This document shows positions 3,522 to 32,548 of a stretch of DNA of 64,000 nt, in pieces. The position numbers were made by a program, and so were the translations under genes. The stretch's first letter is position 1. The number at the start of each line of letters is the position of its first letter. The notes beneath the pieces were generated by a model. The model worked only from the letters and a program-made list of their open reading frames with translations. It was not told where the DNA came from and did no database searches. The DNA comes from a virus (Duplodnaviria > Heunggongvirae > Uroviricota > Caudoviricetes), in IMG/VR virus record IMGVR_UViG_2687453424_000001, one strand, 5' to 3'.

Positions 3522-3535
3522 TGCTTATATAGCTT
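3522..3535 (-). promoter_or_regulatory. candidate TATA box for the dioxygenase gene
   Basis: Minus-strand gctatataagcag lies about 125 bp upstream of the ATG at 3401. Position-based inference only. Confidence 0.3.
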
Positions 3536-3850: not shown

Positions 3851-3874
3851 AGAGAGAGAGAGAGAGAGAGAGAG
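3851..3874. repeat. (GA)n microsatellite
   Basis: Direct reading: agagagagagagagagagagagag. A second shorter (GA)n lies at about 4083-4100. Confidence 0.9.
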
Positions 3875-10527: not shown

Positions 10528-10905
10528 GAAAAAAATTAGGTCAAAATACCTAAAAAGTCCCTATATTCATGTATTTTGTTCAATTTAATCCATGTACTCA
10601 AAATCGTAACATTTTTATCCTTTAATTTTGAAAATTGTTTCAATTTAGTCCCTCCTTCTAACTACATCTAATTTTACCTTTTAAATTAAAAGATGACATC
10701 AATAATGACATCAACGCTGACGTGACATATTTTGATGACGTGGTACCTTCACGATGACGTGGCATGACACGTGATACCGACATGATGACTGGGCAGTGCC
10801 ATCATTGGAACTAAATTTTGTGCTACGTCATAAGAATTAAATTGAATAAAAATATATAGTATAGAGACTAAATTGAACATAAATGAAATGTTGAGGGACT
10901 AAATT
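10528..10905. repeat. left arm of gap-spanning inverted repeat (TIR-like)
   Basis: The reverse complement of 14444-14819 aligns along this arm, e.g. ...gttgagggactaaatt here versus aatttagtccctcaac at 14444, and ttaggtcaaaatacctaaaaagtccc here versus gacttttcaagtattttgactaa near 14800. I estimate 75-80% identity by eye. Confidence 0.8.
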
Positions 10906-10943: not shown

Positions 10944-13900
10944 NNNNNNNNNNNNNNNNNNNNNNNNNNNNNNNNNNNNNNNNNNNNNNNNNNNNNNNNN
11001 NNNNNNNNNNNNNNNNNNNNNNNNNNNNNNNNNNNNNNNNNNNNNNNNNNNNNNNNNNNNNNNNNNNNNNNNNNNNNNNNNNNNNNNNNNNNNNNNNNNN
11101 NNNNNNNNNNNNNNNNNNNNNNNNNNNNNNNNNNNNNNNNNNNNNNNNNNNNNNNNNNNNNNNNNNNNNNNNNNNNNNNNNNNNNNNNNNNNNNNNNNNN
11201 NNNNNNNNNNNNNNNNNNNNNNNNNNNNNNNNNNNNNNNNNNNNNNNNNNNNNNNNNNNNNNNNNNNNNNNNNNNNNNNNNNNNNNNNNNNNNNNNNNNN
11301 NNNNNNNNNNNNNNNNNNNNNNNNNNNNNNNNNNNNNNNNNNNNNNNNNNNNNNNNNNNNNNNNNNNNNNNNNNNNNNNNNNNNNNNNNNNNNNNNNNNN
11401 NNNNNNNNNNNNNNNNNNNNNNNNNNNNNNNNNNNNNNNNNNNNNNNNNNNNNNNNNNNNNNNNNNNNNNNNNNNNNNNNNNNNNNNNNNNNNNNNNNNN
11501 NNNNNNNNNNNNNNNNNNNNNNNNNNNNNNNNNNNNNNNNNNNNNNNNNNNNNNNNNNNNNNNNNNNNNNNNNNNNNNNNNNNNNNNNNNNNNNNNNNNN
11601 NNNNNNNNNNNNNNNNNNNNNNNNNNNNNNNNNNNNNNNNNNNNNNNNNNNNNNNNNNNNNNNNNNNNNNNNNNNNNNNNNNNNNNNNNNNNNNNNNNNN
11701 NNNNNNNNNNNNNNNNNNNNNNNNNNNNNNNNNNNNNNNNNNNNNNNNNNNNNNNNNNNNNNNNNNNNNNNNNNNNNNNNNNNNNNNNNNNNNNNNNNNN
11801 NNNNNNNNNNNNNNNNNNNNNNNNNNNNNNNNNNNNNNNNNNNNNNNNNNNNNNNNNNNNNNNNNNNNNNNNNNNNNNNNNNNNNNNNNNNNNNNNNNNN
11901 NNNNNNNNNNNNNNNNNNNNNNNNNNNNNNNNNNNNNNNNNNNNNNNNNNNNNNNNNNNNNNNNNNNNNNNNNNNNNNNNNNNNNNNNNNNNNNNNNNNN
12001 NNNNNNNNNNNNNNNNNNNNNNNNNNNNNNNNNNNNNNNNNNNNNNNNNNNNNNNNNNNNNNNNNNNNNNNNNNNNNNNNNNNNNNNNNNNNNNNNNNNN
12101 NNNNNNNNNNNNNNNNNNNNNNNNNNNNNNNNNNNNNNNNNNNNNNNNNNNNNNNNNNNNNNNNNNNNNNNNNNNNNNNNNNNNNNNNNNNNNNNNNNNN
12201 NNNNNNNNNNNNNNNNNNNNNNNNNNNNNNNNNNNNNNNNNNNNNNNNNNNNNNNNNNNNNNNNNNNNNNNNNNNNNNNNNNNNNNNNNNNNNNNNNNNN
12301 NNNNNNNNNNNNNNNNNNNNNNNNNNNNNNNNNNNNNNNNNNNNNNNNNNNNNNNNNNNNNNNNNNNNNNNNNNNNNNNNNNNNNNNNNNNNNNNNNNNN
12401 NNNNNNNNNNNNNNNNNNNNNNNNNNNNNNNNNNNNNNNNNNNNNNNNNNNNNNNNNNNNNNNNNNNNNNNNNNNNNNNNNNNNNNNNNNNNNNNNNNNN
12501 NNNNNNNNNNNNNNNNNNNNNNNNNNNNNNNNNNNNNNNNNNNNNNNNNNNNNNNNNNNNNNNNNNNNNNNNNNNNNNNNNNNNNNNNNNNNNNNNNNNN
12601 NNNNNNNNNNNNNNNNNNNNNNNNNNNNNNNNNNNNNNNNNNNNNNNNNNNNNNNNNNNNNNNNNNNNNNNNNNNNNNNNNNNNNNNNNNNNNNNNNNNN
12701 NNNNNNNNNNNNNNNNNNNNNNNNNNNNNNNNNNNNNNNNNNNNNNNNNNNNNNNNNNNNNNNNNNNNNNNNNNNNNNNNNNNNNNNNNNNNNNNNNNNN
12801 NNNNNNNNNNNNNNNNNNNNNNNNNNNNNNNNNNNNNNNNNNNNNNNNNNNNNNNNNNNNNNNNNNNNNNNNNNNNNNNNNNNNNNNNNNNNNNNNNNNN
12901 NNNNNNNNNNNNNNNNNNNNNNNNNNNNNNNNNNNNNNNNNNNNNNNNNNNNNNNNNNNNNNNNNNNNNNNNNNNNNNNNNNNNNNNNNNNNNNNNNNNN
13001 NNNNNNNNNNNNNNNNNNNNNNNNNNNNNNNNNNNNNNNNNNNNNNNNNNNNNNNNNNNNNNNNNNNNNNNNNNNNNNNNNNNNNNNNNNNNNNNNNNNN
13101 NNNNNNNNNNNNNNNNNNNNNNNNNNNNNNNNNNNNNNNNNNNNNNNNNNNNNNNNNNNNNNNNNNNNNNNNNNNNNNNNNNNNNNNNNNNNNNNNNNNN
13201 NNNNNNNNNNNNNNNNNNNNNNNNNNNNNNNNNNNNNNNNNNNNNNNNNNNNNNNNNNNNNNNNNNNNNNNNNNNNNNNNNNNNNNNNNNNNNNNNNNNN
13301 NNNNNNNNNNNNNNNNNNNNNNNNNNNNNNNNNNNNNNNNNNNNNNNNNNNNNNNNNNNNNNNNNNNNNNNNNNNNNNNNNNNNNNNNNNNNNNNNNNNN
13401 NNNNNNNNNNNNNNNNNNNNNNNNNNNNNNNNNNNNNNNNNNNNNNNNNNNNNNNNNNNNNNNNNNNNNNNNNNNNNNNNNNNNNNNNNNNNNNNNNNNN
13501 NNNNNNNNNNNNNNNNNNNNNNNNNNNNNNNNNNNNNNNNNNNNNNNNNNNNNNNNNNNNNNNNNNNNNNNNNNNNNNNNNNNNNNNNNNNNNNNNNNNN
13601 NNNNNNNNNNNNNNNNNNNNNNNNNNNNNNNNNNNNNNNNNNNNNNNNNNNNNNNNNNNNNNNNNNNNNNNNNNNNNNNNNNNNNNNNNNNNNNNNNNNN
13701 NNNNNNNNNNNNNNNNNNNNNNNNNNNNNNNNNNNNNNNNNNNNNNNNNNNNNNNNNNNNNNNNNNNNNNNNNNNNNNNNNNNNNNNNNNNNNNNNNNNN
13801 NNNNNNNNNNNNNNNNNNNNNNNNNNNNNNNNNNNNNNNNNNNNNNNNNNNNNNNNNNNNNNNNNNNNNNNNNNNNNNNNNNNNNNNNNNNNNNNNNNNN

Positions 13901-14443
13901 NNNNNNNNNNNNNNNNNNNNNNNNNNNNNNNNNNNNNNNNNNNNNNNNNNNNNNNNNNNNNNNNNNNNNNNNNNNNNNNNNNNNNNNNNNNNNNNNNNNN
14001 NNNNNNNNNNNNNNNNNNNNNNNNNNNNNNNNNNNNNNNNNNNNNNNNNNNNNNNNNNNNNNNNNNNNNNNNNNNNNNNNNNNNNNNNNNNNNNNNNNNN
14101 NNNNNNNNNNNNNNNNNNNNNNNNNNNNNNNNNNNNNNNNNNNNNNNNNNNNNNNNNNNNNNNNNNNNNNNNNNNNNNNNNNNNNNNNNNNNNNNNNNNN
14201 NNNNNNNNNNNNNNNNNNNNNNNNNNNNNNNNNNNNNNNNNNNNNNNNNNNNNNNNNNNNNNNNNNNNNNNNNNNNNNNNNNNNNNNNNNNNNNNNNNNN
14301 NNNNNNNNNNNNNNNNNNNNNNNNNNNNNNNNNNNNNNNNNNNNNNNNNNNNNNNNNNNNNNNNNNNNNNNNNNNNNNNNNNNNNNNNNNNNNNNNNNNN
14401 NNNNNNNNNNNNNNNNNNNNNNNNNNNNNNNNNNNNNNNNNNN
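10944..14443. other. assembly gap (N run, 3500 bp)
   Basis: Uninterrupted N. Confidence 1.
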
Positions 14444-14819
14444 AATTTAGTCCCTCAACATCTCAATTTTATTTAATTTAGTCTCTATATTATATATTTT
14501 TATTCAATCTACTCCTCATAATGTGACACAAAAAATTTTTTTGAAAATTTTTTGATTTGCCACGTTAGCACGTTGATGTCACGTCATCAAGTCGATGCCA
14601 CGTGACATACCACGTCATCAAAATATGTCGCATCAATGCTGATGTCACTATTGACATCATCTTTTTAACTGCAAAATTGGATGTTGTTAGAGAGAAAGAC
14701 TAAATTGAAGCAATTATTAAAATTAAAGGACTAAAATGTTACAATTTTGAGTATAAAGATTAAATTAAACAAAATGTATGGTACAAAGACTTTTCAAGTA
14801 TTTTGACTAAAAAATTAAG
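14444..14819. repeat. right arm of gap-spanning inverted repeat (TIR-like)
   Basis: Inverted copy of 10528-10905 (see that entry). Contains the mirrored cluster of acgtg/cacgtg/tgacgtg motifs. Confidence 0.8.
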
Positions 14820-15654
14820 TTAAACTGAAATCTAGAGATATTTTTGACCATATTACGATAAAATAAAGTATATTAACAAAAGAAAAGTCAATAATGCATA
14901 ATGGTGTGATTATTTTGGACAATACCTATAATTTAGATTCAATAAAAGCAGCAATAAAGTATTTCACTTTCCATAAGAAGAGAAAATTAATTTTTTATAA
15001 GAATGTGATCGAACATGCTCGTATATATGTGTTATAAGTGCCATTCATTAGGAGTAAATTATACTGATAGACTTATATTATTTATAATTTAAAATTTTGG
15101 ATGAATTACATTTTCATATTGTATGATTTTTTAATATTTTTATCACTTATTCATATAATCATGAATCCTATTATACAAAAAAAAAATACTATTGTAAGTG
15201 TTTTCTTAATTAATTGGCATCGAACCAAGACTTGTTTAAACATTGTCGTAACGTGCGGGTCCGGGAACCCGACCGTCAGACGTGATGTGAAAAACTCTAA
15301 ATAAAACTAGGAGTCGCCACCAATCTTTTTACTAGGTGCGATTGGTCACTTATTGACTCGATTCTAATCGATGAAACTTTAAATTAATTTTAAGCCCACC
15401 GAAAAAAATCTTAAACTGGTCTACGATTTTCTAGATTTAGGCTCGGGAGTACGGTTACGCTCGGGGAATGACTAGCACCCCTGGACACCCTTTCCATGAA
15501 TGGTACTATTCTTAGATTATCCTATTAGGCTTTAATTTTTAAATTCGTTATATTTTCTTAGTTATTATTCACTTATTTTATTTCCTATTTAACCTAAAAT
15601 AGAATGCAAATGTGAGGCAAGATGAAATGTATGGTGTGAGATAAAAAATACCGA

Positions 15655-15985
15655 ACGAATAACCTTTTATCGAAGATATTTTCCTGAATCCGCCCATCAT
15701 ACTGGTGAGACTCGAGGTATTCTCTCACCTAGGGAATTATCCAAGAAATCCGCCTTCGCAAATTCAACGAATAATTCTCATCATCGGAGTTATCATACGT
15801 TTTTCTTTAAAAATAATGTTTTCGTGCACAATAGACCTAATATGAGTCAAAACCATTTATTAAAGATATTTTTCGAGTCCTCTCATCATACTGGTGGGAT
15901 CTTGGGACACATCTTCACTTAGGGAACTTTTCGAGGGATACCCGCCTTCGTAAGATCCTAGGAAGATCCCATCATCGGGGCTTAA
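15655..15985. repeat. two-copy tandem repeat (unit about 190 bp)
   Basis: Units at about 15661-15790 and 15850-15985 share ...atcgaagatattttc...catcatactggtg(a/g)ga...tagggaa...ccgccttcg...catcatcgg(a/g)g... An adjacent GC-rich island at 15230-15490 sits in an AT-rich context and may be a TE fragment. Confidence 0.6.
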
Positions 15986-16097
15986 ACTCAATATATTTAT
16001 ATGCAATGATATGCATGATGCAACGTATATATGTGCTATACTAATGCAATTATCTTATTTTTTTTATTTATTATTATTTAATTATTATTTTCTATTT

Positions 16098-17085
16098 TAT
16101 ATTACTATTTAAAGTAGGGACCGATAATCTGATCTAATTGATTAATTTGTTCGTACAATTATTCTCTTTTAAGAGTATGCATTGGAAATTAAAAATTCAT
16201 CAGACAATATAAATTTGACAATTTATTTTCGTTTTTAAGAATTTTTTGATAAATATCTCATCTTATACCGTATGTACCGAGCTCAAGACTCGAAATTCAA
16301 CTCATTGTATTCTTGCAATTGGATCTTGTAGCAAGCAAAGGAGTGGAACATTTTGCATTGCAAAGGGAAGTCCGACAGTAAAACAAAGCTCTTGGAGTAA
16401 AAGTCCAAAGAAGCTTGCAGACAAACAAAAAAGGAAACTCATGCAACGTACATGTACTACTATTTATAGTGTCATATATTCTTTTTTTTTTAAGAATATT
16501 TTACGATACAACAGTTAATTAAGAGAGACGAATTGTATCATTCACTTGAAAGATTTATTTGTTATTCTACAATGTTTTATTTTTCGGGTTTTTGTTATCT
16601 TTATGAATCTTAAGATTTAGACTCGATTTCTCTTGAAGATCATTATATGTTAATTGGTTTTTGAAGTAATAAACTCTATTAAATGTAAAGATGTAAACCT
16701 TTGACAAATGATAATCTAACTAATTAGGGAAAGAATAGGTATTAAAAGAAAAAGAAAAGCACAACACTGCACTGCACTGCTAATGTTTACTCTAGCTTCT
16801 ACATGTTAATCAATTACAAGAACAAGTCCAGACAAGACATATTTCTATATGTTACAAATTCAAAGCTCTCTCTTGTCAAAAGATAAGAGCATCGATTTTT
16901 TCTTTAATTTCTAATTAATATGAACATTAGTGAGTATTTTTGCTATTATTGTTTTACAATTTTTTCAACTCTCTTTTTTGACCTTTTAACATTCCTATAT
17001 CAATATGGTGGACTGAAAATTGGATGACCATGTGGTTGTATGATTGATTATTGTTTCGTTTACTTATAAATGTATGTGATGAAAA
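16098..17085. repeat. direct repeat copy A (about 1 kb), paired with 24200-25213
   Basis: Long collinear identity with copy B, about 93% by eye, running from attactatttaaagtag... to ...cgtttacttat(a/t)aatgt(a/g)t(g/a)tgatgaaa. Confidence 0.85.
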
Positions 17086-17733
17086 TAGGGTTCACGTGTA
17101 ATTCATTTTATTTCTAATTTTTAAGATTTTGCATTGATTTTGTGTCATGTCTTGAGTTTGATTTTGATTGCAATGTTGATTTTGATTGCAATGATCTCTA
17201 TGGTTTATATTGGGCTACACTTTGTATAGATATATGCGATCATATCATGAGTCTTATTCAAAAATAAAGTAGGAAAAGAATAAAAGGGTCTCATTCTTTC
17301 CTTGACTTCCTTGCATAGAACACTAAAATGATGCTAAAAACTGTCGATTTCCTTGTCCTTTTAACAAAATTATTTCAATGGGATTTCAATATCTCGAAAG
17401 CTGTGTGGCACATGAAGTTTCCTAATAGAAATTGGTGGGTTTTGATGCATCATTTTCGGAAGGTGAATGCTACGTCCTTTGTGCAAACTTTTTGACACTA
17501 CAAAAAAATTGAGTTTTAATCACACTTTTTTAGACGATATATTTTTTTGTATAATAAAATTTTAAAAAGTGTAGCTATTTAAACTTTTAACTTCACTTTT
17601 TTTACATTTAGTAGCAATATAAAAAAGTACAACCTTTGCTAATGTATGCAATTCCTATCGTTATATTTTATTCATAATGCATCTAAAAATTTATATAATG
17701 AGATTAGATATACAAAAATGTTCTAAAAAATAT

Positions 17734-20700
17734 NNNNNNNNNNNNNNNNNNNNNNNNNNNNNNNNNNNNNNNNNNNNNNNNNNNNNNNNNNNNNNNNNNN
17801 NNNNNNNNNNNNNNNNNNNNNNNNNNNNNNNNNNNNNNNNNNNNNNNNNNNNNNNNNNNNNNNNNNNNNNNNNNNNNNNNNNNNNNNNNNNNNNNNNNNN
17901 NNNNNNNNNNNNNNNNNNNNNNNNNNNNNNNNNNNNNNNNNNNNNNNNNNNNNNNNNNNNNNNNNNNNNNNNNNNNNNNNNNNNNNNNNNNNNNNNNNNN
18001 NNNNNNNNNNNNNNNNNNNNNNNNNNNNNNNNNNNNNNNNNNNNNNNNNNNNNNNNNNNNNNNNNNNNNNNNNNNNNNNNNNNNNNNNNNNNNNNNNNNN
18101 NNNNNNNNNNNNNNNNNNNNNNNNNNNNNNNNNNNNNNNNNNNNNNNNNNNNNNNNNNNNNNNNNNNNNNNNNNNNNNNNNNNNNNNNNNNNNNNNNNNN
18201 NNNNNNNNNNNNNNNNNNNNNNNNNNNNNNNNNNNNNNNNNNNNNNNNNNNNNNNNNNNNNNNNNNNNNNNNNNNNNNNNNNNNNNNNNNNNNNNNNNNN
18301 NNNNNNNNNNNNNNNNNNNNNNNNNNNNNNNNNNNNNNNNNNNNNNNNNNNNNNNNNNNNNNNNNNNNNNNNNNNNNNNNNNNNNNNNNNNNNNNNNNNN
18401 NNNNNNNNNNNNNNNNNNNNNNNNNNNNNNNNNNNNNNNNNNNNNNNNNNNNNNNNNNNNNNNNNNNNNNNNNNNNNNNNNNNNNNNNNNNNNNNNNNNN
18501 NNNNNNNNNNNNNNNNNNNNNNNNNNNNNNNNNNNNNNNNNNNNNNNNNNNNNNNNNNNNNNNNNNNNNNNNNNNNNNNNNNNNNNNNNNNNNNNNNNNN
18601 NNNNNNNNNNNNNNNNNNNNNNNNNNNNNNNNNNNNNNNNNNNNNNNNNNNNNNNNNNNNNNNNNNNNNNNNNNNNNNNNNNNNNNNNNNNNNNNNNNNN
18701 NNNNNNNNNNNNNNNNNNNNNNNNNNNNNNNNNNNNNNNNNNNNNNNNNNNNNNNNNNNNNNNNNNNNNNNNNNNNNNNNNNNNNNNNNNNNNNNNNNNN
18801 NNNNNNNNNNNNNNNNNNNNNNNNNNNNNNNNNNNNNNNNNNNNNNNNNNNNNNNNNNNNNNNNNNNNNNNNNNNNNNNNNNNNNNNNNNNNNNNNNNNN
18901 NNNNNNNNNNNNNNNNNNNNNNNNNNNNNNNNNNNNNNNNNNNNNNNNNNNNNNNNNNNNNNNNNNNNNNNNNNNNNNNNNNNNNNNNNNNNNNNNNNNN
19001 NNNNNNNNNNNNNNNNNNNNNNNNNNNNNNNNNNNNNNNNNNNNNNNNNNNNNNNNNNNNNNNNNNNNNNNNNNNNNNNNNNNNNNNNNNNNNNNNNNNN
19101 NNNNNNNNNNNNNNNNNNNNNNNNNNNNNNNNNNNNNNNNNNNNNNNNNNNNNNNNNNNNNNNNNNNNNNNNNNNNNNNNNNNNNNNNNNNNNNNNNNNN
19201 NNNNNNNNNNNNNNNNNNNNNNNNNNNNNNNNNNNNNNNNNNNNNNNNNNNNNNNNNNNNNNNNNNNNNNNNNNNNNNNNNNNNNNNNNNNNNNNNNNNN
19301 NNNNNNNNNNNNNNNNNNNNNNNNNNNNNNNNNNNNNNNNNNNNNNNNNNNNNNNNNNNNNNNNNNNNNNNNNNNNNNNNNNNNNNNNNNNNNNNNNNNN
19401 NNNNNNNNNNNNNNNNNNNNNNNNNNNNNNNNNNNNNNNNNNNNNNNNNNNNNNNNNNNNNNNNNNNNNNNNNNNNNNNNNNNNNNNNNNNNNNNNNNNN
19501 NNNNNNNNNNNNNNNNNNNNNNNNNNNNNNNNNNNNNNNNNNNNNNNNNNNNNNNNNNNNNNNNNNNNNNNNNNNNNNNNNNNNNNNNNNNNNNNNNNNN
19601 NNNNNNNNNNNNNNNNNNNNNNNNNNNNNNNNNNNNNNNNNNNNNNNNNNNNNNNNNNNNNNNNNNNNNNNNNNNNNNNNNNNNNNNNNNNNNNNNNNNN
19701 NNNNNNNNNNNNNNNNNNNNNNNNNNNNNNNNNNNNNNNNNNNNNNNNNNNNNNNNNNNNNNNNNNNNNNNNNNNNNNNNNNNNNNNNNNNNNNNNNNNN
19801 NNNNNNNNNNNNNNNNNNNNNNNNNNNNNNNNNNNNNNNNNNNNNNNNNNNNNNNNNNNNNNNNNNNNNNNNNNNNNNNNNNNNNNNNNNNNNNNNNNNN
19901 NNNNNNNNNNNNNNNNNNNNNNNNNNNNNNNNNNNNNNNNNNNNNNNNNNNNNNNNNNNNNNNNNNNNNNNNNNNNNNNNNNNNNNNNNNNNNNNNNNNN
20001 NNNNNNNNNNNNNNNNNNNNNNNNNNNNNNNNNNNNNNNNNNNNNNNNNNNNNNNNNNNNNNNNNNNNNNNNNNNNNNNNNNNNNNNNNNNNNNNNNNNN
20101 NNNNNNNNNNNNNNNNNNNNNNNNNNNNNNNNNNNNNNNNNNNNNNNNNNNNNNNNNNNNNNNNNNNNNNNNNNNNNNNNNNNNNNNNNNNNNNNNNNNN
20201 NNNNNNNNNNNNNNNNNNNNNNNNNNNNNNNNNNNNNNNNNNNNNNNNNNNNNNNNNNNNNNNNNNNNNNNNNNNNNNNNNNNNNNNNNNNNNNNNNNNN
20301 NNNNNNNNNNNNNNNNNNNNNNNNNNNNNNNNNNNNNNNNNNNNNNNNNNNNNNNNNNNNNNNNNNNNNNNNNNNNNNNNNNNNNNNNNNNNNNNNNNNN
20401 NNNNNNNNNNNNNNNNNNNNNNNNNNNNNNNNNNNNNNNNNNNNNNNNNNNNNNNNNNNNNNNNNNNNNNNNNNNNNNNNNNNNNNNNNNNNNNNNNNNN
20501 NNNNNNNNNNNNNNNNNNNNNNNNNNNNNNNNNNNNNNNNNNNNNNNNNNNNNNNNNNNNNNNNNNNNNNNNNNNNNNNNNNNNNNNNNNNNNNNNNNNN
20601 NNNNNNNNNNNNNNNNNNNNNNNNNNNNNNNNNNNNNNNNNNNNNNNNNNNNNNNNNNNNNNNNNNNNNNNNNNNNNNNNNNNNNNNNNNNNNNNNNNNN

Positions 20701-22537
20701 NNNNNNNNNNNNNNNNNNNNNNNNNNNNNNNNNNNNNNNNNNNNNNNNNNNNNNNNNNNNNNNNNNNNNNNNNNNNNNNNNNNNNNNNNNNNNNNNNNNN
20801 NNNNNNNNNNNNNNNNNNNNNNNNNNNNNNNNNNNNNNNNNNNNNNNNNNNNNNNNNNNNNNNNNNNNNNNNNNNNNNNNNNNNNNNNNNNNNNNNNNNN
20901 NNNNNNNNNNNNNNNNNNNNNNNNNNNNNNNNNNNNNNNNNNNNNNNNNNNNNNNNNNNNNNNNNNNNNNNNNNNNNNNNNNNNNNNNNNNNNNNNNNNN
21001 NNNNNNNNNNNNNNNNNNNNNNNNNNNNNNNNNNNNNNNNNNNNNNNNNNNNNNNNNNNNNNNNNNNNNNNNNNNNNNNNNNNNNNNNNNNNNNNNNNNN
21101 NNNNNNNNNNNNNNNNNNNNNNNNNNNNNNNNNNNNNNNNNNNNNNNNNNNNNNNNNNNNNNNNNNNNNNNNNNNNNNNNNNNNNNNNNNNNNNNNNNNN
21201 NNNNNNNNNNNNNNNNNNNNNNNNNNNNNNNNNNNNNNNNNNNNNNNNNNNNNNNNNNNNNNNNNNNNNNNNNNNNNNNNNNNNNNNNNNNNNNNNNNNN
21301 NNNNNNNNNNNNNNNNNNNNNNNNNNNNNNNNNNNNNNNNNNNNNNNNNNNNNNNNNNNNNNNNNNNNNNNNNNNNNNNNNNNNNNNNNNNNNNNNNNNN
21401 NNNNNNNNNNNNNNNNNNNNNNNNNNNNNNNNNNNNNNNNNNNNNNNNNNNNNNNNNNNNNNNNNNNNNNNNNNNNNNNNNNNNNNNNNNNNNNNNNNNN
21501 NNNNNNNNNNNNNNNNNNNNNNNNNNNNNNNNNNNNNNNNNNNNNNNNNNNNNNNNNNNNNNNNNNNNNNNNNNNNNNNNNNNNNNNNNNNNNNNNNNNN
21601 NNNNNNNNNNNNNNNNNNNNNNNNNNNNNNNNNNNNNNNNNNNNNNNNNNNNNNNNNNNNNNNNNNNNNNNNNNNNNNNNNNNNNNNNNNNNNNNNNNNN
21701 NNNNNNNNNNNNNNNNNNNNNNNNNNNNNNNNNNNNNNNNNNNNNNNNNNNNNNNNNNNNNNNNNNNNNNNNNNNNNNNNNNNNNNNNNNNNNNNNNNNN
21801 NNNNNNNNNNNNNNNNNNNNNNNNNNNNNNNNNNNNNNNNNNNNNNNNNNNNNNNNNNNNNNNNNNNNNNNNNNNNNNNNNNNNNNNNNNNNNNNNNNNN
21901 NNNNNNNNNNNNNNNNNNNNNNNNNNNNNNNNNNNNNNNNNNNNNNNNNNNNNNNNNNNNNNNNNNNNNNNNNNNNNNNNNNNNNNNNNNNNNNNNNNNN
22001 NNNNNNNNNNNNNNNNNNNNNNNNNNNNNNNNNNNNNNNNNNNNNNNNNNNNNNNNNNNNNNNNNNNNNNNNNNNNNNNNNNNNNNNNNNNNNNNNNNNN
22101 NNNNNNNNNNNNNNNNNNNNNNNNNNNNNNNNNNNNNNNNNNNNNNNNNNNNNNNNNNNNNNNNNNNNNNNNNNNNNNNNNNNNNNNNNNNNNNNNNNNN
22201 NNNNNNNNNNNNNNNNNNNNNNNNNNNNNNNNNNNNNNNNNNNNNNNNNNNNNNNNNNNNNNNNNNNNNNNNNNNNNNNNNNNNNNNNNNNNNNNNNNNN
22301 NNNNNNNNNNNNNNNNNNNNNNNNNNNNNNNNNNNNNNNNNNNNNNNNNNNNNNNNNNNNNNNNNNNNNNNNNNNNNNNNNNNNNNNNNNNNNNNNNNNN
22401 NNNNNNNNNNNNNNNNNNNNNNNNNNNNNNNNNNNNNNNNNNNNNNNNNNNNNNNNNNNNNNNNNNNNNNNNNNNNNNNNNNNNNNNNNNNNNNNNNNNN
22501 NNNNNNNNNNNNNNNNNNNNNNNNNNNNNNNNNNNNN
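17734..22537. other. assembly gap (N run, 4804 bp)
   Basis: Uninterrupted N. Confidence 1.
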
Positions 22538-23039
22538 GAGTTCTTTTTTTAAATGGATTCCATGCATAAGGTGTTTTTGACTATAAGCTTTTTTATAATT
22601 TGAACTGTTTTTTACCAAGAGAATTAAAATTTGGACAAAATTACCTTTAATGAAATCGACCCATTTATTTGGCTCCTCACCTTAACCCAAAACCTATTAA
22701 TGGGTCAAGTATGTTTAAGTTTGCGTCTCAAGCCGACTCATATTCTTTAAGCTTTTCTTGCCAAACTATTCATTTCTAGAGTATTCTTTACTAAAAAAAA
22801 AAGTTTAAGCATTTTGAGCATTTTACAGCAGTTTTTGATACACAAAGAAAATCTGTGAGTGTTTTGAGTATTTTTAAGCATTTTGGAGTAATTTTTAGTA
22901 TATGAAGAAAAACTTTTGAACATTTTGAGCATTATTTGTCAAGTAGGCATATTCGTTAATTATGTTATTAAATAGAATATGGTGTAACGTTTAAAGTTAT
23001 TGATCTTATTAAATGGAATGCAGTAGTTTTGATGATTTT

Positions 23040-23365
23040 TAGAATTACGTGATTAGTTTTTAGGTATTGCGTGACTAACTTTAGATATTGCATAACTGAC
23101 TTTGGGTATTGCGTGACTAGTTTTTGATATGACATTGCGTAATTAGTGTTTGACAAAGCATTACGAGACTAGTTGATAGACATTACGTGACTAGTTAATA
23201 AGGCGTTGCATGACTAGTTAGTAAGGCATTGTGTGACTAAGGCATTATTTAAAAATTAGTCACGTAATACCTAAAACTAATTACGTAATACCTAAAAATC
23301 AATCACGCAGTGATTAAATCACATAATGTCTAAAAATCGGTCTCGCAGTACTTAAAAATCAGTCT
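23040..23365. repeat. palindromic minisatellite array (about 22-bp unit, core attgcgtgactagtt)
   Basis: About nine forward units (attacgtgattagttttt, attgcgtgactaacttt, attgcgtgactagttttt, attacgtgactagttaat, ...) up to about 23245, then about four reverse-complement units (ttagtcacgtaatacctaaaa, taattacgtaatacctaaaa, ...) after a centre near 23250. Confidence 0.8.
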
Positions 23366-24199
23366 AATCAATTTCAACTCCTTAACTTTGGGCTTTTATG
23401 AATAAACTAATAAACTCAATAACCTAAAATACATATTTTTTTTTGCTAAGCCATGAAATTATGCATTTCATAAAAGATAAGTTACAAAACTCCATAATCC
23501 TCCAAAGCAAGACAAAATAAATCCCTATCATGAGGGCCTTGCTCACTCTCCTTATGCAAAAACAAAATATACTCATTTACAAAATATTTCTTGAACAATT
23601 TAAATTCAAAATTTTACAAAAAAAATCAAAATCCCTAGCAAGCATGCTTAACAATCATCTCAATATCAGACACAACAAAACTGTAAACCACCATAAAACC
23701 CATCAAACATACTTTAGCTATTTCTTTTCCCTGAGCCCATCACCTTAACCAATCTAATCCAACTCATCAACATAGGCATCTCCATTGCAGCACACGTTTC
23801 GAAGCAAGTCATCACCAGAAAGCATCCAATTACCAAATTCATTATGCTGCCTGCAATCACCATAGAAGAGCAAAATCGCTGTTCATCGTCATTGAAAACC
23901 CCAAGATTCATCATCTAAAAAAATAAAACAAAATAAGAAAGAGCTTGATGTCATCTTTGGATGGCGAGATAGACAGTATTTGACCAGAAAGAGAAATCAA
24001 AATTTAATTTTAAAATTTTTGTTTGCATGGCGGGATAGAGAAAACTGAAATCATTTTAACTTGTCTAAAATTGTTTAAAAAGTATTGTTGTCAACTCATG
24101 TCAAAAATTGATTAAAAATAATTAAAATTATAAAAAATAATATTTTTGAATTGAGCTTAAAAAGAAAGTTATTTTTCACAATTTTCTCTCTAAATATAA

Positions 24200-25213
24200 A
24201 ATATTACTATTTAAAGTAGAGACTGATAATCCAATCTAATTGATTAATTTGTTTGTTCAATTATTCCCTTTTAAGAGTATGCATTGGAAATTAATAATTC
24301 GTCAGACAATATAAATTGGACAATTTATTTTTATTTTTTAGAATTTTTCGATAAATATCTCATCTTATACCATATGTACTGAGCGCAAGACTCGAAATTC
24401 AACTTATTGTATTCTTGCAGTGGGAGCTTGTAGCAAGCAAAGGAGTGAAACATTTTGCATTGCAAAGGGAAGTCCGATACTAAAACAAAGCTCTTGGAGT
24501 AAAAGTCCCATACCCTTCCATAGTCGTCCTTCACGCACCCCATCCCCAATGAATTTTGCAGACAAACAAAAAAGGAAACTCATACAACGTACGTGTACCA
24601 CTATTTATAGTGTCATATATACTTTTTTAATTTTGTTAGGATACAACAGCTAATTAAAAGAGATGAATTTTATGATTCACTTGAAAGATTTACTTGTCAT
24701 TCTATAATGTTTTATCTTTTGGGTTTTTGTTATCTTTATGAATCGTAAGACTTAGACTCGATTTCTCTTGAAGATCATTATATGTTAATTGGTTTTTGAA
24801 GTAATAACTCTATTAAATGTAAAGATGTAAACCTTTGAAAAATGATAATCTAACTAATTAGGGAAAGGATAGGAATTAAAAGAAAAGGAAAAAGAAAAGC
24901 ACTGCACTGCTATTGTTTACTCTAGCTTCTACATGTTAATCAATTACAAGAACATGGCCAGACAGGACATATTTCTACATGTTACAAATTCAAAGCTCTC
25001 TCTTGTCAAAAGATGAGAGCATCGATTTTTTCTTTAATTTCTAATTAATATGAACATTAGTGAGTATTTTTGCTATTATTGTTTTACAATTTTTTCAACT
25101 CTCTTTTTTGACCTTTTAACATTTCTATATCAATATGGTGGACTGAAAATTGGATGACCACGTGGTTGTATGATTGATTCTTGTTTCGTTTACTTATTAA
25201 TGTGTATGATGAA
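24200..25213. repeat. direct repeat copy B (about 1 kb), paired with 16098-17085
   Basis: Same sequence family as copy A. Carries an extra insertion of about 45 bp (catacccttccatagtcgtccttcacgcaccccatccccaatgaat) relative to A. Confidence 0.85.
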
Positions 25214-27900
25214 AGTTGAAATGACCCAAGGTTAATCAAATCAAAATGAAGTGATTTGCTTGGAAAACAAATTGCTAAATTTCTTCATGAATCATGATAG
25301 CAACCTAGCATGATTAATGTTGCCATTCAAACCATATATGGAATGGGACGACTTTCTCAGTCCAGAAAAAACGCAGTTTTCATACTAATTAGCTTTGAGT
25401 GTCCATTTGTGGAGCATGTTTTTCTGCAGCTGATCTTAATAGAGCCAAAGCCAAAGACACCAAGAAGGCCCTTGGTCCCCCAATGAACCAGGGCTCGGGG
25501 GAGGTCCAGTGTGGAAATGTGTTGGAATTGTGTGGAAGTGTGAACTCCTGGAAATACTTTTGTTCTTTTTTTTATTATATATATATAGCCAATTATTTCG
25601 TTTCTGCTGCGACAATGTTTTCCAGGAGAACCATGTGTGCTTGTCACTGGCCCCTGTAAGAGTCTCTTTATGGCCCTTTGGAAAAGCATTGCCTCGTGAT
25701 GTTGGACGAAGATAAAGAACTTTTTCTGAAAGGGAAATGGGGTGCAAAAAAGTCGTGAGTGCATGTGAACAAGTTATACAAGTAACCACTAACACTAATC
25801 TAGATCGATGACGATGAGTTAAGAATTATACAAGAGCATTTCAATCTTTTCGCCTTCTTAGTGCTTTTGAGTTTTGACCCTTTTCTCTCTTTTTTTTTGG
25901 TTGCTAAAAGTTGCTGTTGAGTATGCATGTTTATCTGAATTCCGCATTGAAAATCTTGGTATTTTGCTCCAAGGAATTCGTCTCAAGCCTCTTACAATTG
26001 AAGAGTTAAAGCAAACCAACCAAATCCCACTACACCTTATCCAAAATTTTTTACTGTGTAAACAATATGAGTTGCTTTCAATGATTGACCCGTAAACCAT
26101 TGACGTATCTCGGGTGTTAGTAGGCAATAGCCCCTGAAACTTGACTGAAGATAAACTAATTATAATTTGTCGTGGTTGTAATTAAAGCAATGATAAAGAA
26201 ATTCCAAGATGTGTAAATATTCATCTCATTGATTTTATATGATATTAGAACAGATGTTATCTCTATTCATTATTTCTTTTACAAACTCTTTTTATAGTTT
26301 ATATCATATGATAAATCCGTGTTACAAAATTAATTATGAACGAAGAAGCCTTGTTGGTTTCTATTGATCTCATGCAGAATCCCGCTGGTTACTCAAAGTA
26401 TTTCAAGTAGAAATTGATGCAAAAGGACCTTCATAGCCAGCAGCAAGGTGGCGACTGTGACTAATGGTATTTGTTTTGAAGAGAGAATTTCGGCAAGTCA
26501 GGACAGATTTGGCTCCTTCGATGTTGCTTGCAGTGCATGATAAAGACTTGAGAGGCACAACCTTTATATTCTTTTTGCGGCCTAACAAAAGACTTTGAAG
26601 CATCTATGCAAATTACGAACAAAGCGTGAGGAGGAAAGATCTGCGTTTGTTCTGCTTGTCTCAACAAACTCCCATCCCTTTCCGCTTCTTTTGTACATTG
26701 GATTGCGCATGCCTCGAGACGACGTAATATCTTGGCTACAGTACAAGGAAGAAGATTCGAAGTGCTATTATTTTCTGCCCACATAGCTGGGTCAACATGT
26801 CAACGGTGAAAGCAGATCAGAAGAGAGAATCAAAGAAAAATGCTGGATGGCTTTGGCTTTTGGGTTTTACTGATTTCAGAAGCATCATCTTCATCTAGCG
26901 ATGCACCAATAATTGTCACATGTACAAAGTCATCAACATTCACAGCAAGGCAATCAAGTTTGAACCGAGAACTGATTGCAAGTTAGACCTTCCTTATGCC
27001 TGCCGTAGGCTAGAAAGATTCGGACAGAATTAACAGTTATATTTAACCTGCCGCTGAATCAACATTGAACCTGCCTACACACAAGAATCTACCTCTGTCG
27101 AAAACTCTATCGACGCTAACGGAACAGTGGGCAAAAATCCACCTTCCAAGCTAATCTTGGGTTAGATAGATATGGTCAGAACTCTGAATAACGATCAAGC
27201 TTGCCCCAAGACCGACGCAAGAGTTAATCTTGGGCTGCAAAAACAGTCAGAATAATGATCAGCCAGCGCCCATCACCAACACAAGAATTAAGCACTGTCG
27301 GCTGTCGCTGACTTTTCGAAACCTATGGTCCAGTGGACTACTAAACAGTCTATACTGAAGCTTTATTCGACAATGGGCTGCAATCTGCCTTCCGAGCCGA
27401 TCATGGACTGGAAAGGTGCGGCCAGAGCCTCCCAAGTGTGACGGCTGTAACGCAATTGGCAAGTGCTGAAATGACCCTACAAAGTGCCAGACATGTCCAA
27501 GCATGCCGATGTAAACTTCTATTTGGAACCCCAAACGCAAGAGGCAAGAGACCATATTTTCTTTAGACAAGAATATATTAAGCACTACACAATTCAATCC
27601 CATGCTGTCAACCAGAAACAATAATCAAAAAAGGTTGGTAGTGGTAAGAGAGAATCATACACGCCTAACTCTATGGCCACAAGGTGTTTTCCACGATTAA
27701 CATTAGCAGAGACAAACAAGATGAACTTGGCCCCTCCATAATTCCTTGTAAAACCACCAGGCAAAAAAGACCCCATTCAATGCAAAGAGCCCTCCTCCGC
27801 AAATAATCACAAGAGAAAGCAAAGTCCAAAGATATACAAGGAATGATTCGGTACTTTTTCTTGCAAGGATGAACAAAACAAAGAACTGGTATGATGATGC

Positions 27901-28050
27901 CTACTCGTTCCCCAAGTTCAGAGAACCATCCTTCATCAGCTTCATGCTTAGACTGTTGAATCTCCCTCTTGAGTAATGTCGAGAAGCCTTTCTCCAATCT
28001 GTACCAGTTTTCATCATGGCTGTGAATTCATCATAGCTGATGCGTCCATC
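27901..28050 (-). CDS. CPK13: calcium-dependent protein kinase (CPK13-like); exon 7 of 7 (includes stop)
   Basis: Translation [49 protein letters not shown], containing EF-hand 4 ([12 protein letters not shown] across the exon 6/7 junction). Acceptor tgtaaatgcag|GATGGACGC. TAG stop at 27901-27903. Confidence 0.9.
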
Positions 28051-28130
28051 CTGCATTTACAAAAGAATTGTCAGTCAAATTGAAACATGCTTAATAAATT
28101 TATTAGTGACAAAAACATACAGGTCATCAC

Positions 28131-28361
28131 CTTGTCTGTGTCCACTTCTTGGAAGATGTCATTTGCAACATTAGTACAATCATCTGCTCCATCCTCCATT
28201 AATGAATCCCGAAGCTCATCAGGCTCAATGTAACCATTGCCATCTTTGTCAAAATAGGAAAAGGCCTTTCGAAGATGCTCATCATTGGCTATTCTTTGAA
28301 GATGGAGAGATACAGCAAGAAATTCCCCATAGTCCAATGTTCCTTTCCCATTAGCATCAAC
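28131..28361 (-). CDS. CPK13: calcium-dependent protein kinase (CPK13-like); exon 6 of 7
   Basis: Translation VDANGKGTLDYGEFLAVSLHLQRIANDEHLRKAFSYFDKDGNGYIEPDELRDSLMEDGADDCTNVANDIFQEVDTDK, carrying EF-hands 2 and 3. Acceptor caacag|GTTGATGC and donor GACAAG|gtgatgac. Confidence 0.9.
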
Positions 28362-29374
28362 CTGTTGTCAACAAACACATTTTTATCATTCAAAATCAAA
28401 AGAAACACAAGCCTAGGCTATGATGCCACTATCTGTGTTAAAATTGGATATGTCAGAACGGACCAAGGGAATTTCAGCCACATTGAGGAAACATCTTGAC
28501 AAGTAGGAAAACTGTTAAAGGTGTCTATCAAATTCAAAATTGATCAACAGTTAAGGAAAAGAGATAAAAGGAGGGGAAGCAGCATTACCAATGGCCTCTA
28601 CTATCAACACCAAAAAATTGCAACCTATAGGAACTACTAAAGTAAAAGCTCTAATAACAACTGTAGAACTCCTGCATAAAAACTAGTATTGGCTGACTAG
28701 CTGCTAAATACTCTCTTTTCCTAAAGACAGTCTATTCTTTCAAAAAACTAAAACGCATTCTTGTTTCTCTACTTGGAAAATGTAGTCACACTGATTCTAG
28801 GCAACCTCAGCCTCCCCATTATTATAGCTTTGTCTGTGCATGTTTACAATTGCAGGAGGTGATGACATTTGGTGGCCAAAGGCCACCTACTCCTTCGAAT
28901 TCTTACTGTAAACTATCATCAGATATCCAACTTCTACAAGGCAGCTCTATCAATTGGACAAACATATTTCATAGGAGAAAGAAAAAAGGAAAGCTACACA
29001 GACATTACTGTTAATACTAATAAACAAAATCACAGTTAAAGACAACAAGAGATCCATGAATCTTTAAAAGAACTGCATAACATAATATATATATATAAAT
29101 ATATTCTGATACCAAATGATTCAGCGTAAATTAGTTAAAGATCTGACATAGGTAGACTCCAACCCAATTGAAATAAGCTCCAATTATAACAAGTCTTGGT
29201 CAACTAGTAGTTCTTATGATCATATTGTAGGACTACACTTACAAAAAGTATATGTACTGAGAAAAAGAAAAAGATTTTTGACTGCTATTTTGATGAGAAT
29301 TAGCACAAACCAGGAAAATAAAGTATCATAATACTTGTTAATTCATGGCAGAGTATAAACCAAAACACACTCAC

Positions 29375-29542
29375 AGCTTCAATAAGCATCTGCACTTCAG
29401 ACTCTGCAAGGTGCGAACCAAAATTTCTAAATCCAGCTTTCAGCTCTTCAATTGAAACGATGCCATCATTGTCAGTGTCCATTTTCTTGAACATTTCTTT
29501 GATGTCTTCAACTTCTTCAATGGATAAGAACTCAGCAATAAC
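29375..29542 (-). CDS. CPK13: calcium-dependent protein kinase (CPK13-like); exon 5 of 7
   Basis: Translation VIAEFLSIEEVEDIKEMFKKMDTDNDGIVSIEELKAGFRNFGSHLAESEVQMLIEA, carrying EF-hand 1. Acceptor aattag|GTTATTGC and donor GAAGCT|gtgagtgt. Confidence 0.9.
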
Positions 29543-29628
29543 CTAATTCAAATTAACCTTTAAGATAACCCCAGCAAGGAAAGAAATGACAAAAGATCTA
29601 GCAGAATTCTTAGCATTAGTGAACCAAC

Positions 29629-29744
29629 CCGCAGGGCTTTTCTTTTGAATCTGTTCATCATTGAAAATTGTTTAAGCCTTGACTTAACAACATCGCCAAG
29701 AGGAACATTGGGAGCTTTTTTAGCATTTTGGAGCCAAGGATGCT
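29629..29744 (-). CDS. CPK13: calcium-dependent protein kinase (CPK13-like); exon 4 of 7
   Basis: Translation (E)[38 protein letters not shown], the CDPK junction/autoinhibitory region. Acceptor cacag|AGCATCC and donor CTGCGG|gttggt. Confidence 0.9.
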
Positions 29745-30034
29745 CTGTGAGAAGAGGCAACACACAGATTAGGCAAACTATCACTAGTTATTAACATTTA
29801 ATGGAGCAAATTAGTAACATAGGTCTTTGTACAATTTTGAAGTAAACTGGGAAAGCTGATATTAAGAAGGTTTTATATCTTATATTTGAAGGTGTAGAAA
29901 AAGCCTATCAGAAGATCAAATAGAATCATCAAAGGCTATGACTACACGCCTACGCACCCCCAGTCCCCATCCAGCTCCCTCCCATGAAACATACACAAGT
30001 TCACCTAGGCATAGCACAGAGGAAATTTTACTAC

Positions 30035-30187
30035 CAAGCACTTGCTTTGCAGTGAGACGAAGCTTTGGGTCCGGTTCCAACATTTGCCTGACTAGACTCT
30101 TAGCACTCTCTGAAATATTTGGCCATGGGTCCCGTTTGAAATCTATTAACCCTCGAAGAATTGCCTGTGCAACACCTTGTTCAGACT
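30035..30187 (-). CDS. CPK13: calcium-dependent protein kinase (CPK13-like); exon 3 of 7
   Basis: Translation (E)[50 protein letters not shown]. Acceptor gatgcag|AGTCTG and donor GTGCTTG|gtagta. Phase 1 in and out. Confidence 0.9.
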
Positions 30188-30245
30188 CTGCATCAAAAGC
30201 ACACTTCAGGTAGGAATAACAATTCAACTTATTTTTGATGCATTA

Positions 30246-30470
<225 letters not shown>

Positions 30471-31932: not shown

Positions 31933-32548
31933 CTGGCTTGAAAAATATTGATAACCCAAAATCGATAGCTTTTAACGGCGAATTCTCTTTCTTATTAGCG
32001 AACAAAAAATTCTCAGGCTTCAAATCTCTATGAATCACTCCATGCTTATGACAAAGCTGAACCACTTCCACAATCGTCCTCGTCACCGCCGCGGCGGCTC
32101 TCTCCGTGTAATGTCCTCTGGCCACGATCCTATCGAAGAGTTCACCACCTTCACAAAGCTCCATCACCAAATGAACCGCATTGTCATCCTCGCAAGCTTC
32201 TTTCAAGCTCACGATACTCGAATTCTTCGGCAAATGCTTCATTATCGCAACTTCCCGTCTCACATCCTCGATATCCACGGCCGTCCTCAGCTTCCTCTTC
32301 GAGATAGACTTGCACGCGAGCAACTCGCGCGTGCCGCGGTCGATGCAAAGGTAAGTAACCCCGAACTCACCTCGTCCCAGCTCGCGATCCACCAGGTACT
32401 TCTCCTCGATGTTCTCCTTCGGAACCCCGTTCAGCACCGTGATCGGCGGCTTCTGCTTGGAAACGGAATCTTTACGGGCGTGATCGTGTGCGGAGAAGTT
32501 CGATTTTACGTCCTCCCTCGCGACAGCCGCTGGAGATCTACAACAATT
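31933..32548 (-). CDS. CPK13: calcium-dependent protein kinase (CPK13-like); exon 1 of 7, 5'-truncated by the adjacent gap (MG of MGNCC is inside the N run)
   Basis: Translation [68 protein letters not shown]...[33 protein letters not shown](G). This has the Ser/Thr kinase catalytic motifs ([11 protein letters not shown]) and closely matches the Arabidopsis CPK13 N-terminus [17 protein letters not shown] as I recall it. Donor AAGCCAG|gtaaat at 31932/31933. Confidence 0.9.

What the first reader, a model, noticed from the sequence alone, without database searches (positions are those of the whole stretch)
16098..25213. ~1-kb direct repeats 8 kb apart: candidate LTR pair or two copies of a dispersed repeat
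Copies A (16098-17085) and B (24200-25213) are collinear and about 93% identical, with one roughly 45-bp indel in B. They flank a 4.8-kb gap and 1.6 kb of repeat-rich sequence. If they are the LTRs of one retroelement, their divergence would date the insertion. I could not see canonical TG...CA ends or a primer-binding site, so two independent insertions of a non-autonomous element or a segmental duplication remain possible.
Basis: partly seen in the sequence, partly recalled or inferred. Interest (0 to 1): 0.5.

Follow-up and report, generated by a model that had tools for sequence, protein, structure and literature searches.

The report
Old tandem duplication in cacao spacer
The two 1-kb repeats are not the ends of a retroelement but the largest intact pieces of an old, ordinary tandem duplication of about 1.6 kb of cacao intergenic DNA that transposons later split, and the "4.8-kb gap" between them is an assembly gap that really hides only 264 bases.

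Summary
The repeat is real: A 16099-17085 and B 24201-25215 are collinear and 93.0% identical excluding gaps, with a 39-bp indel. The window is Theobroma cacao; its CDPK13 gene model is 100% identical to EOY07185.1. Four independent N-free cacao assemblies cover the locus. In them the 4804-bp N run between A and B is only 264 bp, so the copies start 3.57 kb apart, not 8.1 kb, and the whole interior is readable. A and B are the distal blocks of a head-to-tail tandem duplication of a ~1.6-kb unit (blocks X-Y-Z-A). Unit 2 starts at the base after A ends (window 17086). With later insertions removed, the units align end to end (1567 vs 1610 bp, 93.2%). Those insertions are a 315-bp CACTA MITE (CACTACAA...TTGTAGTG, 3-bp TSD TGA), a 1655-bp Mutator-like element (perfect 9-bp TSD TAAATATAA, window 22538-24190) and a 1.2-kb indel in unit 1. 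Every LTR hallmark fails: no TG...CA, TSD, PBS, PPT or gag/pol, and the "internal" blocks also lie upstream of A. Verdict: ordinary intergenic tandem duplication plus nested DNA transposons, seen through a poor assembly. Low interest. Unresolved: the window's own left flank of A (14444-16098) is absent from all four other assemblies.

The parts
16099..17085 (.). Copy A: distal ~1-kb block of duplication unit 1. The proximal blocks X1, Y1 and Z1 of unit 1 are not visible in this window.
   Evidence: 99.9% identical to L009 21922-20936. Homologous to B at 93.0% excluding gaps. In L009-L012, block Z1 directly abuts its left end.
17086..17157 (.). Block X2: first block of unit 2. It begins TAGGGTTCACG immediately after the last base of A, which is the head-to-tail junction.
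   Evidence: 97.2% identical to X1 (L009rc 930-1001), which lies 1.7 kb upstream of A in the gap-free assemblies.
17173..17493 (.). Block Y2 of unit 2.
   Evidence: 93.8% identical to Y1 (L009rc 2226-2546).
17496..17733 (.). Visible 238 bp of a 315-bp CACTA-type MITE inserted into unit 2. The last 77 bp lie in the N run.
   Evidence: Termini CACTACAA...TTGTAGTG, a 3-bp TSD TGA on both sides, and an empty paralogous site in unit 1. Window coordinates. Family criteria from PMC4938662.
17734..22537 (.). Assembly gap of 4804 N that really hides 264 bp: a poly-A run and the end of the MITE, its TGA TSD, and block Z2 (184 bp) ending in the left copy of the 9-bp TSD.
   Evidence: Window 17733 and 22538 map to L009 20287 and 20022. 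The hidden sequence is printed. Z2 = L009rc 4450-4633, 94% identical to Z1.
22538..24190 (.). Mutator-like non-autonomous DNA transposon (1653 bp here, 1655 bp in L009) inserted between Z2 and B. It carries internal inverted and tandem subrepeats (23037-23318).
   Evidence: A perfect 9-bp TSD TAAATATAA on both sides, present only once at the paralogous site of unit 1. No transposase domain. TIRs weak, 13 of 30. MULE TSD range of 8-11 bp from PMC3903597.
24191..24199 (.). Right copy of the 9-bp target-site duplication, TAAATATAA. It is also the true left end of B's homology to unit 1.
24201..25215 (.). Copy B: distal ~1-kb block of unit 2. The duplication ends at ...GATGAAAG, followed by unique sequence TTGAAATGACCC.
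24507..24545 (.). 39-bp G+C-rich indel present in B and absent in A.

Best explanation
A and B are paralogous blocks of one old local tandem duplication. A ~1.6-kb stretch of non-coding DNA lies about 2.7 kb downstream of the cacao CDPK13 stop codon. It runs from TAGGGTTCACG... to ...GATGAAA(A/G) and was duplicated head to tail. The junction has at most 1 nt of microhomology, so I infer an end-joining or replication-type event rather than homologous unequal crossing-over. Both copies then decayed neutrally to about 93% identity (JC distance 0.07, roughly 3-15 My depending on the rate assumed). Three later events broke up the collinearity. A 315-bp CACTA MITE and a 1.65-kb Mutator-like element inserted into unit 2, and a 1.2-kb indel arose in unit 1. 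The distal 1 kb escaped all of these, so it stands out as a clean repeat pair. In this window's assembly, a gap with a grossly inflated length hides block Z2. In addition, the part of unit 1 upstream of A is replaced by unrelated sequence. Together these made the pair look like isolated 1-kb repeats 8 kb apart. Shown: the architecture, junctions, TSDs, identities and presence in four assemblies. Inferred: the duplication mechanism, neutrality and age.
For: Species and orthology: the spliced CDPK13 model is 100% identical over 525 aa to T. cacao EOY07185.1. Gap-free loci L009 and L010 match the window at 99.9% and show 264 bp in place of the 4804 N. Self-comparison of L009 gives four collinear duplicated blocks: X 97%, Y 93.8%, Z 94% and A/B 88.8% including gaps. 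Unit 1 ends at 3720 and unit 2 starts at 3722. Base-level junctions: X1 and X2 both start TAGGGTTCACG, and A ends ...GATGAAAA directly before X2. With the insertions removed, the units align globally: 1567 vs 1610 bp, 1448 matches, 106 mismatches, 93.18%. The insertions carry diagnostic signatures and have empty paralogous sites: CACTA termini with a 3-bp TGA TSD, and a perfect 9-bp TSD TAAATATAA. All four assemblies share the whole architecture, including two (L011, L012) that differ from L009 by about 2%, so it is not an assembly artefact. There is no coding or RNA signal: Pfam six-frame scan negative; the ORF open in both copies has no homologue among 5.8e9 proteins; Rfam negative; no tRNA.
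Against: No whole cacao genome could be searched, so I cannot show that the 1.6-kb unit is absent elsewhere. If it were dispersed, a mobile-element origin of the unit would have to be reconsidered. No close outgroup (Herrania, T. grandiflorum) was available to show the single-copy ancestral state. Gossypium and Hibiscus loci have no homologue of the unit at all. Identity along the unit is mildly heterogeneous (87-97% per 150 bp; chi-square p=0.03). That could mean local gene conversion or constraint rather than pure neutrality. The window's own sequence left of A (14444-16098) disagrees with all four other assemblies and is unexplained.
Confidence: 0.87

Rival explanations
1. A and B are the LTRs of a retroelement, either autonomous with gag/pol hidden in the gap, or a non-autonomous LARD/TRIM-like element or tandem LTR complex.
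For: Two direct repeats of LTR-like length (987 and 1015 bp) with sharp ends in the window and 93% identity. In the raw window a 4.8-kb N run could have hidden a coding region.
Against: The ends are ATATTAC...GATGAAA, not TG...CA. No TSD of 4 bp or more is found even allowing 4 bp of boundary slack. There is no TGG within 25 nt of either inner boundary in either orientation, and no polypurine tract: the longest purine runs are 8 and 5 nt, and the 8-nt run does not abut the boundary. The gap is really 264 bp. The full 2.58-kb interior consists of X2, Y2, a CACTA MITE, Z2 and a MULE-like element, with no Pfam hit. Blocks X, Y and Z of the supposed interior also lie upstream of A with no third LTR to their left.
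Confidence: 0.02
2. The ~1.6-kb unit, or the 1-kb block, is a member of a dispersed non-autonomous transposon family. Two copies sit side by side through adjacent insertion or rolling-circle (Helitron-like) tandem copying.
For: Sharp, identical boundaries in both units. The genome-wide copy number could not be measured. Helitrons are known from general knowledge to form tandem arrays.
Against: No TIR (12-14 of 40 matches), no TSD around either copy or around the pair, no 5'-TC...CTRR-3' in either orientation, and no poly(A) tail. The units abut with 0-1 nt between them, which adjacent independent insertions would rarely give. There are no further copies in the 36 kb of readable window sequence or in the roughly 100 kb of cacao loci held. 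An exact 26-mer is absent from the metagenome contigs.
Confidence: 0.07
3. The pair is an assembly artefact: two haplotype or allelic contigs, or a collapsed repeat, placed in series within a gappy scaffold.
For: The window's assembly is clearly poor here. It is 44% N, its gap lengths are inflated 4- to 18-fold, and one contig (14444-17733) has a left part found in no other assembly.
Against: Both copies, in the same order and with the same private substitutions and insertions, are present in four independent N-free chromosome-scale assemblies.
Confidence: 0.02

Closest known systems
Local tandem (segmental) duplication of intergenic DNA, later fragmented by nested transposon insertions
   Same: Two same-orientation units abut head to tail. 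Homology spans the whole unit once younger insertions are removed, divergence is roughly uniform at about 7%, and there are no mobile-element termini.
   Different: Nothing unusual. Only the distal 1 kb is uninterrupted, and in this assembly the proximal part of unit 1 is not visible.
LTR retrotransposon / LARD / TRIM (paired long terminal repeats)
   Same: A pair of ~1-kb direct repeats a few kb apart with LTR-like divergence.
   Different: All defining features are lacking (TG...CA, 4-6-bp TSD, PBS, PPT, gag/pol), and the 'internal' blocks recur upstream of the left repeat.
CACTA (En/Spm) superfamily MITE
   Same: The 315-bp insertion in unit 2 has 5'-CACTACAA...TTGTAGTG-3' termini and a 3-bp TSD (TGA), as the superfamily is defined (PMC4938662).
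   Different: It is non-autonomous, and no family assignment was possible because there is no TE library. Only the first 8 nt of the TIR are perfect.
Mutator-like element (MULE), non-autonomous or non-TIR type
   Same: A perfect 9-bp TSD within the 8-11-bp range used to define MULEs (PMC3903597), an AT-rich target and internal inverted subrepeats.
   Different: The terminal inverted repeats are poor (13 of 30; both ends start GAG) and there is no transposase. Membership therefore rests on TSD length alone.

Membership tests
LTR retrotransposon (LTR pair) | LTRs begin TG and end CA | tested here: not met
   A and B begin ATATTAC and end GATGAAA(A/G).
LTR retrotransposon (LTR pair) | 4-6-bp target-site duplication outside the pair | tested here: not met
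   The best match between left-of-A and right-of-B is 2 bp, even with 4 bp of slack at each boundary.
LTR retrotransposon (LTR pair) | Primer-binding site (TGG..., complementary to a tRNA 3' end) next to the 5' LTR | tested here: not met
   No TGG within 25 nt inside either repeat, in either orientation.
LTR retrotransposon (LTR pair) | Polypurine tract next to the 3' LTR | tested here: not met
   The longest purine runs in the 40 nt at the inner boundaries are 8 and 5 nt, and purine content next to the boundaries is 0.4-0.5.
LTR retrotransposon (LTR pair) | gag/pol (autonomous), or at least an internal region private to the element | tested here: not met
   The gap resolves to 264 bp. Pfam six-frame scan of the interior is negative. 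Interior blocks X, Y and Z are also present upstream of A.
Tandem segmental duplication | Two collinear, same-orientation units that abut head to tail | tested here: met
   Unit 1 ends at L009rc 3720 and unit 2 starts at 3722. In the window, A ends at 17085 and X2 starts at 17086.
Tandem segmental duplication | Homology over the whole unit once younger insertions are removed | tested here: met
   1567 vs 1610 bp, 93.18% identity, 69 gap columns.
Tandem segmental duplication | Real in the genome, meaning reproducible in independent assemblies | tested here: met
   Present in L009, L010, L011 and L012, four N-free assemblies.
Tandem segmental duplication | Single-copy state in a close outgroup | not testable with these tools
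   No Herrania or other Theobroma locus is available. Gossypium and Hibiscus loci have no homologue of the unit.
Dispersed non-autonomous transposon (TIR element, Helitron, SINE) | Terminal signatures (TIR, 5'-TC...CTRR-3', or poly(A)) and a TSD around each copy | tested here: not met
   TIR 12-14 of 40 matches, no TSD longer than 4 bp, and no Helitron or poly(A) ends in either orientation.
Dispersed non-autonomous transposon (TIR element, Helitron, SINE) | Many copies dispersed in the genome | not testable with these tools
   No cacao genome search is available. There are no extra copies in the window or in the fetched cacao loci, and no hit in the metagenome contigs.
CACTA superfamily (the 315-bp insertion) | 5'-CACTA...TAGTG-3' termini and a 3-bp TSD | tested here: met
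   CACTACAA...TTGTAGTG, TGA on both sides, and an empty site in unit 1. Criteria from PMC4938662.
Mutator-like elements (the 1.65-kb insertion) | 8-11-bp TSD | tested here: met
   Perfect 9-bp TAAATATAA on both sides, single at the paralogous empty site. Criterion from PMC3903597.
Mutator-like elements (the 1.65-kb insertion) | Long terminal inverted repeats and/or MURA-type transposase | tested here: not met
   The best TIR match is 13 of 30 and there is no Pfam domain. It can only be called MULE-like, possibly a non-TIR MULE.

The most novel reading that the evidence does not exclude
The duplicated 1.6-kb unit is not neutral junk. It might be a lineage-specific regulatory or non-coding-RNA module downstream of CDPK13 whose 3' ~320 bp is kept similar (97%) by constraint or gene conversion. 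Alternatively the unit might represent an undescribed mobile element without classical termini that copies itself in tandem.
Probability: 0.05. Interest if true: 0.3.

Novelty: already known. Interest (0 to 1): 0.08.

Why it matters
It matters mainly as a caution. The repeat pair passes length, identity and spacing filters for LTR candidates. Dating an 'insertion' from its 7% divergence would have produced a spurious retroelement and a spurious age. The case also shows that N-run lengths in this assembly cannot be trusted. The four runs that could be checked stand for only 264-336 bp of low-complexity DNA but are written as 1.2-4.8 kb. Contig ends also coincide with repeat boundaries. Biologically it is a routine example of how plant intergenic DNA grows: a small tandem duplication followed by nested MITE and MULE insertions, all fixed across divergent cacao haplotypes.

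Tried and rejected
1. Exact-product look-ups of window ORFs (135 aa and 174 aa) found nothing on record.

2. The first CDPK exon search returned only exon-sized hits. Their loci (L001-L005) were other genera, with only exons aligning at 74-88%.

3. A search with the ORF that is open in both copies (16219-16515 / 24342-24650, kept in frame by the 39-bp indel) gave no homologue in 5.8e9 proteins. I treat the ORF as chance and non-coding.

4. An exact 26-mer from the A=B identical stretch had 0 hits in the metagenome contigs.

I redid it with X-masked six-frame strings, and it was negative.

6. Gossypium and Hibiscus orthologous loci align through the CDPK introns at only 77-81%, and the intergenic region is not conserved. 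They are useless for the repeat, but they first hinted that the N runs are inflated.

The window-specific flank 14444-16098 therefore stays unexplained.

8. I considered microhomology-mediated unequal crossing-over at a shared GTGAT near the breakpoints. I rejected it because the observed junction (GTGATGAAAA|TAGGG) is not the one that crossover would produce.

9. I retract an earlier side remark that CDPK exon 1 has a non-GT donor. The sequence reads CCAG|GTAAAT.

Full report
OBSERVATION. The window is AT-rich plant DNA of which 44% is N, in seven runs. Self-BLAST of the whole window gives one collinear HSP, 24201-25214 vs 16099-17084 (88.7% over 1026 columns, E=0). There is no third copy, and the visible flanks are not similar. 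Global alignment gives 908 matches, 68 mismatches and 50 gap columns. That is 93.0% identity excluding gaps and 88.5% including them. The indels are 39 bp (B 24507-24545), 6, 4 and 1 bp.

LTR TESTS IN THE WINDOW. The copies begin ATATTAC and end GATGAAA(A/G), so there are no TG...CA ends. No TSD of 4 bp or more joins left-of-A to right-of-B, even with 4 bp of slack at each boundary. No TSD flanks either copy on its own, and there are no terminal inverted repeats. No TGG occurs within 25 nt of either inner boundary in either orientation, so there is no primer-binding site. There is also no polypurine tract. Six-frame Pfam scans of the visible interior (17086-17733 and 22538-24200) and of copy A found no gag, pol, RT, integrase or transposase domain. 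Rfam found nothing. One reading frame is open in both copies, but it has no homologue among 5.8 billion predicted proteins. I treat it as chance.

WHOSE GENOME. The gene on the minus strand to the right of B is a seven-exon CDPK13 (27904-32548; its first two codons lie in the next N run). Full-length hits are Malvaceae. Within the 90% clusters, the model is 100% identical over 525 residues to Theobroma cacao EOY07185.1. Gossypium and Hibiscus loci align only at 77-81%, through the introns, and have nothing like the repeat.

THE GAP-FREE LOCUS. Four independent cacao assemblies carry the gene and are N-free over 24.6 kb: L009 (GCA_036851155.1), L010 (Matina 1-6, GCA_000403535.1), L011 (GCA_036851125.1) and L012 (GCA_036851095.1). 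The window matches L009 and L010 at 99.9%. Window 16099-17733 maps to L009 21922-20287, and window 22538-32548 maps to L009 20022-10007. The 4804-bp N run therefore stands for 264 bp. Three other N runs (4765, 1158 and 4637 N) stand for 336, 304 and 325 bp. What they hide is poly-A, a C-rich tract with (GA)n, a 9%-GC AT tract and (TA)n. They are genuine assembly gaps at low-complexity DNA with inflated lengths. The published history of cacao assemblies includes misassembled contigs, tens of Mb of gaps and mate-pair scaffolding (PMC5603072). I could not establish which assembly the window comes from.

WHAT A AND B ARE. In window orientation (L009rc), self-comparison gives four collinear duplicated blocks:
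- X: 930-1001 vs 3722-3793, 97%.
- Y: 2226-2546 vs 3809-4129, 93.8%.
- Z: 2550-2732 vs 4450-4633, 94%.
- A/B: 2724-3720 vs 6289-7312.

Unit 1 ends at 3720 and unit 2 begins at 3722. At base level, X1 and X2 both start TAGGGTTCACG. X2 follows the last base of A (...GATGAAAA|TAGGG). After B the sequence continues into unique DNA (...GATGAAAG|TTGAAATG). This is a head-to-tail tandem duplication of a unit of about 1.6 kb. The junction has at most 1 nt of microhomology.

The blocks are separated by three later events:
- A 315-bp element between Y2 and Z2. It has termini CACTACAA...TTGTAGTG and TGA on both sides, and the paralogous site in unit 1 is empty. This is a CACTA-type MITE by the superfamily's definition (PMC4938662).
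- A 1655-bp element between Z2 and B (window 22538-24190). It is flanked by a perfect 9-bp duplication TAAATATAA that occurs once in unit 1. The TSD length is that of Mutator-like elements, 8-11 bp (PMC3903597). Its TIRs are poor and it has no transposase, so I call it only MULE-like.
- A 1224-bp indel between X1 and Y1 in unit 1, with no recognisable termini.

With these removed, the units align globally: 1567 vs 1610 bp, 93.18% identity, JC distance 0.0715. All four assemblies share the complete architecture, including L011 and L012, which differ from L009 by about 2%. The duplication and all three later events therefore predate the split of these haplotypes, and the pair is not an assembly artefact. 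The divergence corresponds to roughly 3 My (1.3e-8 per site per year), 5 My (7e-9) or 15 My (2.5e-9). The rate is assumed, not measured. Identity varies mildly along the unit (chi-square p=0.03). The 97% over the last ~320 bp is within what noise or a little gene conversion would give.

WHY IT LOOKED LIKE AN LTR PAIR. In this window the right-hand contig starts exactly at the first base of the MULE-like element (22538). The N run hides Z2 and the end of the MITE. X2 and Y2 have no visible partner because the proximal part of unit 1 is missing from the window. Only the two distal blocks remained recognisable, separated by an inflated gap.

UNRESOLVED. In all four other assemblies Z1 abuts A. 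In the window the 1655 bp to the left of A (14444-16098) are unrelated sequence found in none of them. The break lies 1 bp from the site paralogous to the MULE-like target in unit 2. This is either a genotype-specific insertion or a chimeric contig.

VERDICT. The feature is real but ordinary. It is an old intergenic tandem duplication fragmented by a CACTA MITE and a MULE-like element, seen through a gappy assembly. Residual uncertainty of about 10% concerns whether the 1.6-kb unit also exists elsewhere in the genome, which a single BLAST against a complete cacao assembly would settle.

Noticed in passing
window 17734-22537, 32549-37313, 38406-39563, 41067-45703: All four N runs that could be checked are inflated about 4- to 18-fold. 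They correspond to 264, 336, 304 and 325 bp of low-complexity DNA in N-free cacao assemblies: poly-A, a C-rich tract with (GA)n, a 9%-GC AT tract and (TA)n. N-run lengths in this window should not be read as distances.
   Followed up: yes
window 14444-16098: The 1655 bp directly left of copy A are absent from all four other cacao assemblies, where block Z1 abuts A. The break (16098|16099) lies 1 bp from the site paralogous to the MULE-like target in unit 2. This is either a genotype-specific insertion or a chimeric contig.
   Followed up: partly
window 10540-10905 and 14444-14807: An inverted repeat of about 365 bp (76% identity) flanks the N run 10944-14443. It may be the long terminal inverted repeats of a MULE-like or foldback element whose interior was not assembled.
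   Followed up: no
window 15661-15787 / 15851-15978 and 63262-63428 / 63427-63592: Two short local tandem repeats: units spaced about 190 bp apart at 74% identity inside the unexplained left flank, and units of about 165 bp at 87% near the end of the window.
   Followed up: no
window 27904-32548 (-): A complete seven-exon CDPK13 gene, 100% identical in protein to T. cacao EOY07185.1. Its ATG and the next two bases lie in the adjacent N run. All splice sites read are canonical; an earlier suspicion of a non-GT donor at exon 1 was checked and retracted.
   Followed up: yes
window 1493-3401 (-), 52481-53455 (+), 63413-63997 (+): Other genes in the window: a three-exon 2OG-Fe(II) oxygenase, a trihelix factor (Myb_DNA-bind_4 in the L011/L012 annotation) and a SAP30-like ORF. 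The region is ordinary gene-bearing euchromatin.
   Followed up: partly
L009rc 15898-17007 (about window 38226-40187): A segment of about 1.1 kb upstream of CDPK13 is present in the window, L009 and L010 but absent from L011 and L012. It is a presence/absence polymorphism between two cacao haplotype groups that differ by about 2% across the locus.
   Followed up: no
L010 18015-18804 (about window 23750-24545, minus strand): The Matina 1-6 annotation carries an 89-aa gene model with no Pfam domain. It spans the end of the MULE-like element and the start of copy B, and is probably an ab initio artefact on transposon and duplicated DNA.
   Followed up: no
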